From Escherichia coli (GTDB lineage Bacteria > Pseudomonadota > Gammaproteobacteria > Enterobacterales > Enterobacteriaceae), in NCBI RefSeq assembly GCF_030013205.1, contig NZ_CP122648.1: DNA of 64,000 nucleotides; one strand, 5' to 3'. The notes under the pieces were generated by a model. It was given only the letters and a program-made list of their open reading frames with translations. It did no database searches and was not told the origin of the DNA. The position numbers and the translations under genes are program-made. Every line of letters starts with the position of its first letter. The first letter of the stretch is position 1. Below, in pieces: positions 59,497 through 64,000 of the stretch.

Positions 59497-62301
59497 ATGA
59501 GTAAACTTTTGGATCGCTTTCGCTACTTCAAACAAAAGGGCGAAACCTTTGCCGATGGTCACGGACAGGTGATGCATAGCAACCGCGACTGGGAGGACAG
59601 CTATCGCCAGCGTTGGCAGTTCGACAAAATCGTGCGTTCCACCCACGGTGTTAACTGTACAGGCTCCTGTAGCTGGAAAATCTACGTTAAAAATGGTCTG
59701 GTGACCTGGGAAATCCAACAGACTGACTACCCGCGCACTCGCCCTGACCTGCCCAATCATGAACCTCGCGGCTGCCCGCGTGGCGCAAGTTACTCCTGGT
59801 ATCTCTACAGCGCTAACCGTCTGAAATACCCGCTCATTCGTAAACGACTGATTGAACTGTGGCGCGAAGCCCTCAAGCAACACAGCGATCCGGTACTGGC
59901 GTGGGCATCGATTATGAACGATCCGCAAAAGTGCCTAAGCTACAAACAAGTACGTGGACGCGGCGGCTTTATCCGCTCCAACTGGCAGGAGCTAAACCAG
60001 CTGATTGCCGCTGCTAACGTCTGGACCATCAAAACTTACGGCCCGGATCGCGTTGCCGGTTTCTCGCCGATCCCGGCGATGTCGATGGTTTCTTACGCCG
60101 CCGGAACACGTTATCTTTCACTATTAGGTGGCACCTGTTTAAGCTTCTACGACTGGTATTGCGACCTGCCGCCCGCCTCGCCGATGACCTGGGGCGAACA
60201 AACCGACGTGCCGGAATCTGCCGACTGGTATAACTCCAGTTACATCATCGCCTGGGGGTCTAACGTACCGCAGACACGTACGCCGGACGCCCATTTCTTT
60301 ACCGAAGTACGCTACAAAGGCACTAAAACCATCGCCATTACCCCTGACTACTCTGAAGTGGCCAAATTGTGCGACCAGTGGCTGGCACCGAAACAAGGCA
60401 CTGATAGTGCCCTGGCAATGGCAATGGGCCATGTCATTTTAAAAGAGTTTCATCTCGATAATCCCAGCGATTATTTTATCAACTACTGCCGCCGCTACAG
60501 CGACATGCCGATGCTGGTAATGCTGGAACCTCGCGACGACGGCAGCTACGTTCCCGGGCGCATGGTCCGCGCATCTGACCTGGTGGATGGACTGGGCGAA
60601 AGCAACAATCCGCAGTGGAAAACCGTGGCGGTTAATACCGCAGGTGAACTGGTGGTGCCGAACGGTTCGATTGGTTTTCGCTGGGGAGAAAAAGGCAAAT
60701 GGAATCTGGAATCCATTGCCGCCGGTACGGAAACCGAATTGTCGTTAACTCTGCTCGGTCAACATGATGCCGTTGCAGGCGTGGCCTTCCCCTACTTTGG
60801 CGGCATTGAAAATCCGCATTTTCGCAGCGTAAAAAACAATCCTGTCCTGGTGCGTCAATTACCCGTTAAAAACCTGACATTAGCCGATGGCAGCACCTGT
60901 CCGGTGGTCAGCGTTTATGATTTGGTACTGGCGAATTACGGCCTCGATCGCGGGCTGGAAGATGAAAACAGCGCGAAAGATTACGCTGAAATCAAACCGT
61001 ACACCCCAGCCTGGGGTGAGCAAATTACCGGTGTGCCGCGCCAGTATATTGAAACCATCGCTCGTGAATTTGCCGATACTGCCCATAAAACGCATGGGCG
61101 CTCGATGATTATCCTCGGCGCAGGTGTTAACCACTGGTACCACATGGACATGAACTACCGTGGGATGATCAACATGCTGATCTTCTGCGGTTGTGTCGGG
61201 CAAAGCGGTGGCGGATGGGCACACTATGTCGGTCAGGAAAAACTGCGCCCACAAACCGGCTGGTTGCCGCTGGCCTTTGCGCTCGACTGGAACCGCCCAC
61301 CGCGCCAGATGAACAGCACCTCGTTTTTCTACAATCATTCCAGCCAATGGCGCTATGAAAAAGTCTCTGCTCAGGAGTTACTTTCACCGCTCGCCGATGC
61401 CAGTAAGTACAGCGGTCATCTGATTGATTTCAACGTTCGTGCCGAACGTATGGGCTGGCTACCTTCTGCGCCGCAGCTGGGGCGTAACCCGCTCGGGATT
61501 AAAGCTGAAGCCGACAAGGCCGGATTATCCCCCACAGAATTTACCGCCCAGGCGCTGAAATCGGGCGATTTACGCATGGCCTGCGAACAACCAGATAGCG
61601 GCAGCAATCATCCGCGTAATTTGTTTGTCTGGCGTTCTAACCTGCTTGGCTCCTCCGGCAAAGGCCACGAGTATATGCAGAAGTATCTGCTGGGAACCGA
61701 AAGTGGGATTCAGGGTCAGGAACTCGGTGCCAGCGACGGGATCAAACCAGAAGAAGTCGAGTGGCAAACTGCGGCGATTGAAGGCAAGCTCGACCTGCTG
61801 GTGACGCTCGACTTCCGTATGTCCAGTACCTGCCTGTTCTCCGATATCGTTCTGCCCACCGCCACCTGGTACGAAAAAGACGATATGAACACCTCGGATA
61901 TGCATCCGTTTATTCATCCGCTTTCTGCGGCGGTCGATCCGGCGTGGGAATCACGCAGCGACTGGGAAATCTACAAAGGTATCGCCAAAGCCTTTTCGCA
62001 AGTGTGCGTGGGCCATCTTGGCAAAGAAACCGACGTGGTATTACAACCACTGCTGCATGACTCTCCGGCAGAACTCTCACAGCCGTGTGAAGTGCTCGAC
62101 TGGCGCAAAGGCGAATGCGATCTGATTCCAGGTAAAACTGCGCCCAATATTGTGGCGGTGGAACGCGACTACCCTGCTACCTATGAACGCTTTACCTCGC
62201 TCGGGCCATTGATGGACAAACTTGGCAACGGCGGTAAAGGGATTTCGTGGAATACCCAGGATGAAATCGATTTCCTCGGCAAACTCAACTACACCGAGTA
62301 G
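59497..62301 (+). pseudogene. narZ: narZ (respiratory nitrate reductase Z alpha subunit) truncated at about codon 934 by an insertion element
   Basis: Translation from MSKLLDRFRYFKQKGETF through the Cys-cluster and molybdopterin regions ends at ...GKLNYTE followed by a stop; IS91-type genes follow. Confidence 0.85.
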
Positions 62302-62382
62302 GCAGCCTGGCGGCTGCGGCTTGTCATGGTCTGGAATTACCGTTATAAAAAAAGATAATGTCATTGTCTTTCAGGTAGTTAT

Positions 62383-62748
62383 ATGGCCCGTTCAGCTAAA
62401 CCCCGTAAACGCAAACCCGCACCACAAAGAAGCAAACTTCCCCGCTATGTTGTGAAACTTCATCCGGATGATTTTTTTGACGAAGAAGACGCTGAAGTTC
62501 TGCGCTTTGATAATTTTGACGATGCCGTTGAGTGCTGCGCTGACCTGGGTATTCCGTTCTTTCTGGATGCAGGAAACAAAAAGCTGGTCTTCTGGTTTGT
62601 TCGTGTCGATGACGAAGGGTATCCGGAAATAGCCCGCTGTACGGAGCGGGAGTTTGCAACCATTCTTGCCGGTATCAGTGCCGGCGGCATGTACTGCCCG
62701 GAGTGTGGCACGGTTCACTGGCCGGACGGAGTCCCCCCGCCCTTCTGA
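62383..62748 (+). CDS. IS91-family small accessory ORF (121 aa)
   Basis: Basic N-terminus (MARSAKPRKRKPAPQRSK) and C-terminal CxxC; 121 aa, overlapping the downstream transposase start. Confidence 0.65.
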   Translation: MARSAKPRKRKPAPQRSKLPRYVVKLHPDDFFDEEDAEVLRFDNFDDAVECCADLGIPFFLDAGNKKLVFWFVRVDDEGYPEIARCTEREFATILAGISAGGMYCPECGTVHWPDGVPPPF

Positions 62749-63935
62749 TGCTTCCCCGTTTTGCCGACATTTTTCAGCAGGGAAACCGCTGGCTTAACTG
62801 GCTGGAGAAACAACCGGAAGGTTCAGTGCGTCCGGTAGTCATTGAGTCGGTGACAAAAATCATGGCGTGCGGAACCACGCTGATGGGGTACACACAGTGG
62901 TGCTGTTCATCTCCGGACTGTTGCCACACAAAAAAGGTCTGCTTCCGGTGTAAAAGTCGCTCCTGCCCGCACTGCGGAGTGAAGGCTGGCGCACAGTGGA
63001 TACAGTATCTGCTGAGCCTGGTCCCCGACTGCCCGTGGCAGCATATTGTGTTCACACTTCCCTGCCAGTACTGGTCCCTGGTGTTCCACAACCGGTGGTT
63101 ACTGGCAGAGATGAGCCGCATTGCAGCGGATGTGATACTGGAAATCTGCCATCAGACAGATGTGGAGCCGGGGATATTCACGGTGATCCACACATGGGGG
63201 CGTGACCAGCAGTGGCATCCGCATATCCATTTATCGACAACTGCCGGTGGTGTGACGTCGGGCCACACCTGGAAAAATCTTCATTTTTACGCCCGTAAGG
63301 TGATGAGCATGTGGCGTTACCGGATAACGCGGCTACTGTCCCGGAAATACCCGGAGCTGGTAATACCGGATGAACTGGCAGTGGAAGGAAACAGCAAACG
63401 GGACTGGAATTGCTTCCTGGACACGCATTACCGCCGCGGCTGGAATGTCAACATATCCAGGGTGATGGATAACGCCACACATGTGGCGGTGTACTTCGGC
63501 TCTTACCTGAAAAAGCCACCGGTGCCGATGAGTCGGCTGGAGCATTATGCCGGTCAGGATGAAATCGGTCTGCGTTACAACAGTCACCGTACAAAACGGG
63601 AAGAATACCTGTTGATGAGTGGAGATGAGTTCATGGAAAGGTTCTCCTGGCATGTAGCAGATAAGGGGTTCCGTATGGTGAGGTACTACGGTTTCCTGAG
63701 TCCGGTGAAGCGCCGCTTACTGGAAGAAGTTGTGTACGTCATAACGGAGACGGTGAGAAAGACGGCGATGCAAATCAGGTGGAGAGGGATGTATCAGAGG
63801 TTACTGAAGGTTGACCCGCTGAAGTGCATTCTGTGCGGAAGTCAGATGCGTTTTACGGGGCTGAAGCGGGGTTACCGACTGGCAGAGCTGGTCCTGATGC
63901 ATGAGCGACTGGCACGACAGCAGGTGTGCGGCTGA
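62703..63935 (+). CDS. tnpA: IS91-family HUH (Y2) rolling-circle transposase TnpA
   Basis: N-terminal zinc-binding Cys cluster (CCHTKKVCFRCKSRSCPHCG), HUH-like motif (HPHIH), C-terminal Tyr-containing region (MVRYYGFLS) and CILCGS. Confidence 0.8.
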   Translation: MWHGSLAGRSPPALLMLPRFADIFQQGNRWLNWLEKQPEGSVRPVVIESVTKIMACGTTLMGYTQWCCSSPDCCHTKKVCFRCKSRSCPHCGVKAGAQWIQYLLSLVPDCPWQHIVFTLPCQYWSLVFHNRWLLAEMSRIAADVILEICHQTDVEPGIFTVIHTWGRDQQWHPHIHLSTTAGGVTSGHTWKNLHFYARKVMSMWRYRITRLLSRKYPELVIPDELAVEGNSKRDWNCFLDTHYRRGWNVNISRVMDNATHVAVYFGSYLKKPPVPMSRLEHYAGQDEIGLRYNSHRTKREEYLLMSGDEFMERFSWHVADKGFRMVRYYGFLSPVKRRLLEEVVYVITETVRKTAMQIRWRGMYQRLLKVDPLKCILCGSQMRFTGLKRGYRLAELVLMHERLARQQVCG

Positions 63936-64000
63936 GAGCCGCAGAGGGGAAGTTGCGTCCATTTTACCGGAAACGGAGCAAAAAACCGCCATTCATACCC

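What the first reader, a model, noticed from the sequence alone, without database searches (positions are those of the whole stretch)
62296..64000. IS91-family element truncates narZ and likely inactivates the narZYWV operon
NarZ ends after about 934 of the expected roughly 1246 residues, exactly where a 121-aa ORF plus HUH transposase gene pair begins. This type of element transposes by rolling circle and can mobilise adjacent DNA; the window ends inside it, so the downstream content is unknown.
Basis: partly seen in the sequence, partly recalled or inferred. Interest (0 to 1): 0.5.

Follow-up and report, generated by a model that had tools for sequence, protein, structure and literature searches.

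The report
IS91 insertion and deletion removing narZYWV
A complete copy of the known jumping gene IS91 sits inside the narZ gene of a pig-associated E. coli lineage, and the 11.9 kb that should follow it, including the rest of the nitrate reductase Z operon, has been deleted; this is an ordinary, lineage-specific gene loss.

Summary
narZ (window 59497-62301) stops after 934 codons instead of 1246, exactly where IS91 begins (62295). orf121 (62383-62748) and an intact 395-aa HUH/Y2 transposase gene (62748-63935) follow.

The element is a complete 1,829-bp IS91. It is 100% identical to copies on the lineage's haemolysin plasmids, and it ends 123 bp beyond the window.

This is not a simple insertion:
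- The terIS end is joined canonically to narZ at a 5'-CTTG target.
- In five complete porcine ETEC genomes identical to the window here, the oriIS end abuts a 5'-GTTC target in an rhs pseudogene.
- The 11,859 bp between the two sites in isogenic intact strains are missing. They hold the narZ 3' end, narY, narW, narV, yddE, nhoA, yddH, pptA, a sulfatase gene, a GGDEF gene and the rhs tip.
- narYWV is not found elsewhere in those genomes.

So the operon is destroyed by deletion, not by polarity.

A Korean sister strain has the same narZ junction, a tandem IS91 pair and a 32-kb deletion ending at another canonical target.

Two routes to the deletion fit and cannot be separated here. One is a second insertion followed by homologous recombination. 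The other is transposase-mediated re-targeting of the oriIS end.

The kind of event is well known. Interest is low.

The parts
58014..59402 (+). narU (nitrate/nitrite transporter), intact, first gene upstream of narZ
   Evidence: RefSeq annotation of the identical stretch of ETEC1748 (L001 11715-13103; window = L001 + 46299). ORF listed.
59497..62301 (+). Truncated narZ: 933 native codons, one IS-derived codon (GAG) and an IS-derived TAG stop. The C-terminal 313 residues are missing.
   Evidence: (TIGR01580 positions 1-933 of 1235).
62294..62295 (.). narZ/IS91 junction: ...AACTACAC | CGAGTAGG.... Isogenic intact narZ reads ACAC|CAAGCGTG, so the IS sits exactly 5' of a CAAG (5'-CTTG on the bottom strand). 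The C at 62295 could come from either partner.
   Evidence: ETEC4075 and W13-16 against ETEC1748 and K_EC180. terIS cleavage after 5'-CTCG and target 5'-CTTG/GTTC from PMC13181058.
62295..64000 (+). IS91, complete 1,829-bp unit CGAG...CGAT. It runs on to position 64123 in extended coordinates, 123 bp beyond the window.
   Evidence: Element boundaries from five independent contexts. 100% identical to the plasmid copies in pW1316-2 and ETEC4079 plasmid 3. Removing exactly this unit restores two interrupted reading frames in plasmids.
62295..62317 (-). terIS end: cleavage tetranucleotide 5'-CTCG (bottom strand, 62295-62298) and the subterminal palindrome GCAGCC-TGGC-GGCTGC (62302-62317).
   Evidence: Sequence. 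DNA fold gives a 6-bp hairpin at -7.1 kcal/mol, not significant on its own (z = -1.2). It matches the terIS description in PMC13181058.
62383..62748 (+). orf121 (121 aa). In the literature it is a regulator of IS91 transposition and of accurate terIS termination.
   Evidence: No NCBIfam family. Function from PMC13181058. RefSeq protein WP_000124096.1.
62748..63935 (+). tnpA, IS91 HUH/Y2 transposase, 395 aa, intact. Zn-binding domain at aa 17-104. Y2_Tnp domain at aa 142-321. HPHIH at 63216-63230. YFGSY (Y249, Y253) at 63492-63506.
   Evidence: RefSeq WP_086186060.1 'IS91-like element IS91 family transposase'.
63936..64000 (+). Start of the oriIS-side non-coding end of IS91. The oriIS terminus ...AAATTCCTATCGAT and its flanking GAAC lie at 64110-64127 in extended coordinates, outside the window.
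   Evidence: L001 17637-17828.

Best explanation
A complete and apparently transposition-competent IS91 marks the scar of an IS91-associated deletion. The element is 1,829 bp, with orf121, tnpA, an intact terIS and an intact oriIS next to a target tetranucleotide.

Step 1 is shown by junction anatomy, and the mechanism comes from the literature. IS91 most likely came from the lineage's own alpha-haemolysin plasmid, whose copy is 100% identical. It inserted by rolling-circle transposition into narZ at a 5'-CTTG target. This gave the precise junction narZ-ACAC|CGAG-terIS and cut NarZ at residue 933. Step 1 happened in the common ancestor of the Belgian porcine ETEC group and the Korean strain K_EC180.

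Step 2 is shown as an outcome, but its route is inferred. The oriIS end is now joined precisely to a 5'-GTTC target inside an rhs pseudogene 11,859 bp further on. Everything in between is gone: the narZ 3' 942 bp, narY, narW, narV, yddE, nhoA, yddH, pptA, an alkyl/aryl-sulfatase gene, a GGDEF gene, an ISAs1 remnant, and the rhs tip with its neighbouring 132-aa ORF.

The slightly more likely route is a second IS91 copy inserted in the same orientation at the rhs GTTC, followed by homologous recombination between the two copies. The alternative is that the transposase re-joined the oriIS end in cis to the new GTTC site, an intramolecular event like one-ended transposition.

Consequence: nitrate reductase Z cannot be made in this lineage. 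The alpha subunit lacks its C-terminal quarter, and the beta, chaperone and gamma genes are absent. narU remains.
For: Truncation and element identity.

Element ends and the lack of target duplication come from five contexts. They are confirmed by restoring a Tn3-family and an IS91-family transposase frame when the 1,829-bp unit is removed.

The ancestral sites are ACAC|CAAG in narZ and CCC|GAAC in rhs, in the isogenic strains ETEC4075 and W13-16. The deleted stretch holds 66 same-orientation CAAG/GAAC sites in 11.9 kb. A random breakpoint would therefore fall exactly 5' of one about 0.6% of the time, and three of three junctions do.

The collinear alignment gives a deletion of L008 22797-34655.

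narYWV is found in 5397 of 5426 genomes. All 16 records at 99% identity or more are listed, and none is one of the six narZ::IS91 genomes. No full-length copy of the 11.9-kb segment is present in them either.

Six genomes share the junction. K_EC180 has the same terIS junction and the same derived narU SNP, but a different oriIS flank, also a canonical CAAG.

The chromosomal copy is identical to the plasmid copy next to hlyD.

Precedents exist for both routes. Recombination between direct IS91 repeats deleted hly and the Shigella SRL island (PMC3214074). IS801 one-ended transposition produced deletions ending at GAAC/CAAG (PMC6354349).
Against: The DNA beyond base 64000 is inferred from other genomes, not read from the window's own strain. 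Those genomes are 100% identical over the last 2.7 kb, and ETEC1748 over the last 17.7 kb. The window's strain is not ETEC1748 itself, because it lacks an IS2 that ETEC1748 carries about 52 kb upstream.

No intermediate genome carries the reciprocal junctions oriIS|CAAG-narZ 3' or rhs|terIS (0 of 5426). The order of events and the route of the deletion therefore remain inferences.

The first IS91 of K_EC180 differs from the window's copy at 105 positions from nt 331 onward. Either recombination with another isoform occurred, or the two lineages were hit independently at the same site.

Loss of nitrate reductase Z activity was not measured. The state of narGHJI and nap in this strain was not examined.
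Confidence: 0.9

Rival explanations
1. Simple IS91 insertion: the rest of narZ and narYWV follow the element just beyond the window, and the operon is inactivated only by disruption and polarity. This is the reading implied by the first reader.
For: From the window alone this cannot be excluded, because the window stops inside the element. The terIS junction is exactly what a simple insertion at narZ's CAAG would give.
Against: All five genomes 100% identical to the window over narZ-IS91 continue into rhs, not narZ. No genome of 5426 has the oriIS|CAAG-narZ 3' junction. The carriers lack narYWV.
Confidence: 0.03
2. The deletion was made directly by the transposase. After the narZ insertion, TnpA cut at oriIS and at a GTTC in rhs on the same strand. 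It then joined the two and expelled the 11.9 kb between them, an intramolecular event like one-ended transposition. The larger K_EC180 deletion would be a second such event. No second IS copy and no homologous recombination are needed.
For: The terIS junction is fixed and the oriIS-side endpoints vary. Each endpoint lies exactly at a canonical tetranucleotide, in two sister lineages. Only one IS91 copy is left in the ETEC1748 chromosome. The related IS801 makes variable deletions with one fixed border at ori801 and the other at GAAC/CAAG (PMC6354349). No two-copy intermediate was found.
Against: The final sequence is identical to what a second insertion plus recombination would leave. The isoform mismatch between K_EC180 IS91a and the window's copy from nt 331 onward is what recombination between different incoming copies predicts. 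It is not what re-use of one resident copy predicts. The IS801 plasmid deletions are circularised one-ended transposition products that carry a replicon. The same geometry in a 5-Mb chromosome would need replication around the whole chromosome, or a different strand-exchange reaction. I found no report of such deletions for IS91 in the papers read here.
Confidence: 0.35
3. IS91 first inserted at the rhs GAAC. Unrelated illegitimate recombination then removed the DNA from its terIS end back into narZ.
For: The oriIS|GAAC junction in rhs is canonical. There is a 1-nt ambiguity (C) at the narZ junction.
Against: The terIS end is complete to the cleavage nucleotide, and the breakpoint in narZ lies exactly 5' of a CAAG. 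The chance expectation for that is about 0.6-1%. K_EC180 keeps the narZ junction but not the rhs junction, so narZ is the older junction.
Confidence: 0.03
4. Assembly artefact: contigs were mis-joined across a repeated IS91.
For: IS91 is multicopy on the plasmids of these strains, and repeats can cause mis-joins.
Against: Six complete genomes from two countries show the same narZ junction. The chromosome has a single copy in ETEC1748. The flanks are collinear with the expected chromosomal neighbourhood on both sides. narYWV is absent from the carriers.
Confidence: 0.01

Closest known systems
IS91 (prototype of the IS91 family; X17114; alpha-haemolysin plasmids of E. coli)
   Same: The architecture is the same: terIS with 5'-CTCG and a subterminal palindrome, orf121, a one-base TGATG overlap, a 395-aa HUH/Y2 tnpA and oriIS. 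The target tetranucleotides are the same (5'-CTTG, 5'-GTTC) and there is no target duplication. The copy is 100% identical to the one next to hlyD on pW1316-2.
   Different: Nothing differs in the element itself. It is chromosomal here, whereas most catalogued isoforms are single copies on IncF plasmids (PMC13181058). Identity to the X17114 reference was not measured directly.
Deletions by recombination between directly repeated IS91 sequences (hly operon of pHly152; Shigella flexneri SRL island)
   Same: IS91-bounded loss of a multi-kb block that leaves one IS91 sequence at the scar (PMC3214074).
   Different: In those cases both flanking copies were observed before the deletion. Here the two-copy intermediate is hypothetical.
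IS801 one-ended-transposition deletions in Pseudomonas syringae plasmids
   Same: One border is fixed at the IS end. The variable borders lie exactly at GAAC or CAAG, and the deletion sizes are nested (PMC6354349; compare).
   Different: In IS801 the fixed border is ori801, and the retained product is the transposed circle carrying a replicon. Here the fixed border is terIS-narZ, the variable border is next to oriIS, and the event is in a chromosome.
narZYWV (nitrate reductase Z) of E. coli K-12
   Same: Same locus and synteny: narU-narZ downstream of the yddK-like LRR gene. The first 933 residues of NarZ are intact.
   Different: The C-terminal 313 residues of NarZ and all of narY, narW and narV are missing. 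5397 of 5426 complete genomes retain narYWV.

Membership tests
IS91 (insertion sequence, IS91 family) | Transposase with an N-terminal zinc-binding domain and a Y2 HUH domain (HUH motif and two catalytic tyrosines) | tested here: met
   NF033538, 288 bits against a cutoff of 125. Pfam PF14319 (E = 1.6e-18) and PF04986 (E = 1.5e-38). HPHIH at aa 157 and YFGSY at aa 249-253.
IS91 (insertion sequence, IS91 family) | orf121 upstream of tnpA, with its stop codon overlapping the tnpA start. This is specific to IS91 itself within the family. | tested here: met
   121-aa ORF at 62383-62748, with TGATG at 62746-62750. Feature as described in PMC13181058.
IS91 (insertion sequence, IS91 family) | terIS end with cleavage tetranucleotide 5'-CTCG and an adjacent subterminal palindrome | tested here: met
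   Bottom strand reads ...GCAGCCGCCAGGCTGCCTACTCG|GTGT at 62295-62317. Definition from PMC13181058.
IS91 (insertion sequence, IS91 family) | oriIS end abutting a 5'-CTTG or 5'-GTTC target tetranucleotide | tested here: met
   ...CCTATCGAT|GAAC in ETEC1748, outside the window. Plasmid copies show CAAG three times and CCAG once.
IS91 (insertion sequence, IS91 family) | No target-site duplication | tested here: met
   Removing exactly the 1,829-bp unit restores uninterrupted Tn3-family and IS91-family transposase frames at two plasmid sites. The chromosomal flanks ACAC and GAAC are unrelated.
IS91 (insertion sequence, IS91 family) | At least 95% nucleotide identity to reference IS91 X17114, the isoform criterion used in PMC13181058 | not tested
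   The reference sequence was not fetched. RefSeq names the protein 'IS91-like element IS91 family transposase'. The copy is identical to one beside hlyD on a haemolysin plasmid.
IS91 (insertion sequence, IS91 family) | Transposition activity | not testable with these tools
   All sequence parts are intact. Activity needs a mating-out assay.
Simple IS insertion | Target DNA is contiguous once the element is removed | tested here: not met
   Removing the IS joins narZ codon 933 to an rhs pseudogene. 11,859 bp present in the isogenic strains are absent.
NarZ (respiratory nitrate reductase Z alpha subunit) | Full-length match to the narG/narZ equivalog model, and a position downstream of narU | tested here: not met
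   Identity as narZ is met: TIGR01580 at 1766 bits, and narU lies directly upstream. Only model positions 1-933 of 1235 are present, so this is a truncated pseudogene.

The most novel reading that the evidence does not exclude
The locus records transposase-made, terIS-anchored nested deletions in a chromosome. Under this reading IS91 stays put in narZ while its oriIS end is repeatedly re-joined in cis to new GTTC/CTTG sites. The first event removed 11.9 kb to reach rhs. A second, in the sister strain, brought the loss to 32 kb and ended upstream of yncJ, alongside a tandem copy with the circle-type junction CGAT|CGAG. It would be a natural example of intramolecular rolling-circle transposition causing genome reduction, which the papers read here did not describe for IS91.
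Probability: 0.3. Interest if true: 0.35.

Novelty: already known. Interest (0 to 1): 0.15.

Why it matters
The practical value is modest. A small porcine ETEC/edema-disease sublineage (6 of 5426 complete E. coli genomes) has irreversibly lost the stationary-phase nitrate reductase Z, together with nhoA, yddE, yddH, pptA, a sulfatase gene and a diguanylate-cyclase-like gene. This could serve as a clonal marker. It matters slightly for studies of nitrate respiration in the gut, although narGHJI and nap were not examined.

For mobile-element biology, the locus is a clean natural illustration of IS91 end and target rules. It shows the terIS 5'-CTCG end, oriIS next to 5'-CTTG/GTTC, and a tandem copy at the oriIS-adjacent target. 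It also shows a live IS91 on the chromosome, oriented so that failed termination would mobilise narZ' and narU.

Tried and rejected
(1) I first thought the IS had lost 2-3 nt (AT) at its left end, because four plasmid copies all read AT|CGAGTAGG. I rejected this. The literature places terIS cleavage after 5'-CTCG. Removing the unit without the AT restores the interrupted Tn3-family frame (...[10 protein letters not shown]...) and an IS91-family transposase frame. The AT is therefore target DNA.

(2) I searched for the reciprocal junctions that would reveal an intermediate, namely oriIS|CAAG-narZ 3' and rhs|terIS. None was found in 5426 genomes, so the route of the deletion stays open.

(3) Folding the oriIS end as single-stranded DNA gave no convincing structure (z = +1.96). 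The terIS hairpin is present but not statistically remarkable on 50 nt.

(4) Inversion or relocation of narYWV was rejected.

(5) A literature search for narZ together with IS91 returned no paper.

(6) The first run_python calls failed only because several loci share one FASTA file. This had no bearing on the result.
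Full report
**1. What is in the window**

The ORF list and the raw sequence show narU at 58014-59402, followed by a long ORF whose biologically sensible start is ATG 59497 (MSKLLDRFRYFKQKG...). That ORF ends at TAG 62299-62301 after 934 codons. It matches the narG/narZ equivalog model TIGR01580 with 1766 bits, but only over model positions 1-933 of 1235. Against the 1246-aa NarZ of the isogenic strain ETEC4075, residues 1-933 are identical. Residue 934 is E instead of K, and then comes the stop.

Immediately downstream lie a 121-aa ORF (62383-62748) and a 395-aa ORF (62748-63935). Its ATG shares one base with the stop of the first ORF, in the sequence TGATG. The 395-aa protein has these features:
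- It matches NF033538 'IS91 family transposase' at 288 bits, against a cutoff of 125.
- It has Pfam Zn_Tnp_IS91 at aa 17-104 and Y2_Tnp at aa 142-321.
- It carries HPHIH at aa 157 and YFGSY at aa 249-253.

**2. Where the window comes from and what lies beyond it**

Megablast of window 61300-64000 against 5426 complete E. coli genomes finds the narZ-IS91 junction in only six. Five are Belgian porcine ETEC chromosomes at 100% identity (ETEC1748, 4067, 4070, 4071, 4079). The sixth is the Korean swine strain K_EC180.

The last 17.7 kb of the window are base-for-base identical to ETEC1748. Further upstream the window lacks an IS2 that ETEC1748 carries. The window therefore comes from a sister strain, and what lies beyond base 64000 is inferred from these genomes.

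In ETEC1748 the IS is followed by an rhs pseudogene, then yncH, yncG and ansP. It is not followed by the rest of narZ.

**3. Element boundaries**

I aligned the chromosomal copy with four plasmid copies in unrelated contexts. This gives the unit CGAGTAGGCAGCC...AAATTCCTATCGAT, 1,829 bp long. The right flanks are CAAG (three times), CCAG (once) and, in the chromosome, GAAC.

All four plasmid copies have AT to the left of the unit, which at first looked like a 2-nt loss in the chromosomal copy. That reading is wrong, for two reasons:
- The 2026 study of IS91 reports terIS cleavage after 5'-CTCG in every event analysed. It reports insertion next to 5'-CTTG or 5'-GTTC at the oriIS side, with no target duplication (PMC13181058).
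- Deleting exactly the 1,829-bp unit restores an uninterrupted Tn3-family transposase frame (...[22 protein letters not shown]...) at one plasmid site. It restores an IS91-family transposase frame at another.

The chromosomal element is thus complete. It runs from window 62295 to 64123 in extended coordinates, so 123 bp fall outside the window. The terIS palindrome GCAGCC-TGGC-GGCTGC lies at 62302-62317.

The copy is 100% identical to the one beside hlyD on plasmid pW1316-2 and to a copy on an ETEC4079 plasmid. ETEC1748's own plasmids carry several identical copies, and its chromosome carries only this one.

**4. The junctions and the deletion**

ETEC4075 and the O139:H1 strain W13-16 are identical to the window over narZ's first 2.8 kb and have the region intact. 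Their gene order is narZ (3741 bp), narY, narW, narV, yddE, nhoA, yddH, pptA, an alkyl/aryl-sulfatase gene, a GGDEF gene, an ISAs1 remnant, an rhs fragment, a 132-aa ORF, the rhs core pseudogene, and yncH.

Collinear alignment shows that ETEC1748 lacks L008 22797-34655, which is 11,859 bp. The four relevant sequences are:
- Ancestral narZ site: AACTACAC|CAAGCGTG.
- Carrier at narZ: AACTACAC|CGAGTAGG. The C is ambiguous.
- Ancestral rhs site: CAGTTCCC|GAACTCATT.
- Carrier at rhs: CCTATCGAT|GAACTCATT.

Both junctions are exactly what IS91 transposition makes. The terIS end is joined to the DNA that precedes a CAAG, and the oriIS end is joined to a GAAC. The deleted stretch holds 66 same-orientation CAAG/GAAC sites in 11.9 kb, so a random breakpoint would sit exactly 5' of one about 0.6% of the time.

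The two junctions belong to two different target sites, so this is not a simple insertion.

**5. Is narYWV really gone?**

A 2.9-kb narY-narW-narV query finds a match in 5397 of 5426 genomes, with a median of one place per genome, so the narGHJI paralogue is not being picked up. All 16 records at 99% identity or more are listed, and they are the intact close relatives. None of the six carriers is among them. The full 11.9-kb segment is likewise not found in the carriers.

The operon is deleted. It has not been moved or inverted.

**6. The sister lineage**

K_EC180 has the identical narZ|terIS junction, and it shares a derived narU SNP with ETEC1748 relative to ETEC4075. After the first IS91 comes a second copy in tandem. 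Their junction is ...CCTATCGAT|CGAGTAGG.... This is the oriIS-terIS junction expected if a new copy inserts at the target tetranucleotide next to a resident oriIS.

The DNA after the second copy starts with CAAG, 50 bp upstream of yncJ. The ancestral site there reads AACCT|CAAGAAACG. K_EC180 has therefore lost 11,859 + 20,315 = 32,174 bp.

Its first IS91 is identical to the window's copy for 330 nt and then differs at 105 positions. Its second copy differs at 17 clustered positions. This mosaic pattern points to recombination among IS91 isoforms.

**7. Mechanism**

The following is shown. IS91 was inserted canonically in narZ, most parsimoniously once, in the common ancestor of the two sublineages. 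The oriIS side was later re-joined to new canonical targets, with loss of the DNA in between.

The route of that loss is inferred, and two routes give the same final sequence.

Route (i) is a further IS91 insertion in the same orientation downstream, followed by homologous recombination between the copies. Recombination between direct IS91 sequences has documented precedent in the hly deletions on pHly152 derivatives and in the Shigella SRL island (PMC3214074). The isoform mosaic in K_EC180 fits this route.

Route (ii) is transposase-catalysed joining of oriIS to a new GTTC/CTTG in cis. It resembles the IS801 one-ended-transposition deletions, whose variable borders are GAAC or CAAG (PMC6354349).

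No genome holds the reciprocal junctions that would decide between them. I put route (i) at roughly 0.5-0.55 and route (ii) at 0.3-0.35.

**8. Consequences**

NarZ lacks its C-terminal 313 residues, and the beta, chaperone and gamma genes are absent. Nitrate reductase Z therefore cannot be assembled. This follows from the established subunit composition of the enzyme, and activity was not measured. narU is intact.

The IS91 copy has all its parts and a proper tetranucleotide next to oriIS. That tetranucleotide is described as essential for transposition (PMC13181058). The copy is therefore presumably active.

Transposition starts at oriIS and ends at terIS, and termination failure carries along the DNA beyond terIS. 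The DNA that this copy could mobilise is therefore narZ' and narU on its left. It is not the DNA beyond the window's end.

**9. Comparison with what is known, and novelty**

The element is IS91 itself. Every structural criterion I could test is met, and identity to the X17114 reference was not measured.

RefSeq already annotates narZ in these genomes as a pseudogene missing its C-terminus, with an IS91 transposase next to it. IS-bounded deletions are commonplace. No paper in the searchable library mentions narZ together with IS91, but that reflects how ordinary the event is rather than any novelty.

**10. Verdict**

Novelty is 'already known' and interest is about 0.15.

The only reading with some novelty is that the transposase itself made nested, terIS-anchored deletions. 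I give it a probability of about 0.3 and an interest of about 0.35 if true.

Noticed in passing
L003 8996-12653 (K_EC180, NZ_CP062203.1): The same narZ|terIS junction is followed by two IS91 copies in tandem with a circle-type junction CGAT|CGAG. A CAAG target 50 bp upstream of yncJ comes next, and 32,174 bp are lost in total. The first copy is a mosaic isoform, with 105 differences from nt 331 onward.
   Followed up: yes
L004-L007, left flanks of four plasmid IS91 copies (about position 1499-1500 of each locus): All four independent insertions have AT (two have CGAT) immediately left of terIS. This AT is target DNA. It suggests that IS91 prefers targets resembling its own oriIS junction (5'-CTTG^AT...), although the narZ and rhs sites do not follow this pattern.
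   Followed up: partly
window 21276-21973: An IS1 family transposase gene splits an ABC transporter gene at the yddA position into two pseudogene halves. This rests on the RefSeq annotation of the identical stretch of ETEC1748.
   Followed up: no
window about 10060-10067 (compare L011 8733-10059): The window lacks the IS2 insertion that interrupts the fimbrial usher gene in ETEC1748. The window is therefore from a sister strain, not from ETEC1748 itself.
   Followed up: partly
window 56446-57699: A leucine-rich-repeat protein gene lies upstream of narU at the yddK position. It encodes 417 aa, against 318 aa for K-12 YddK, and it is frameshifted in K_EC180.
   Followed up: no
L008 17005-18334 and L009 13785-15110: The intact relatives carry other IS insertions in the same neighbourhood. 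ETEC4075 has an IS2 between the LRR gene and narU. W13-16 has an IS3-family element splitting the ompC-like porin gene. The region is an IS-rich, plastic part of this lineage's chromosome.
   Followed up: no
E. coli genome searches: narZ and narYWV each match 25 places on records labelled as plasmids, and 29 of 5426 genomes have no narYWV match at all. Neither set was examined.
   Followed up: no
L008 33896-34655: The deletion removes the C-terminal 361 bp of the rhs core pseudogene together with the adjacent 132-aa ORF. That ORF sits where an Rhs immunity gene would be expected.
   Followed up: no
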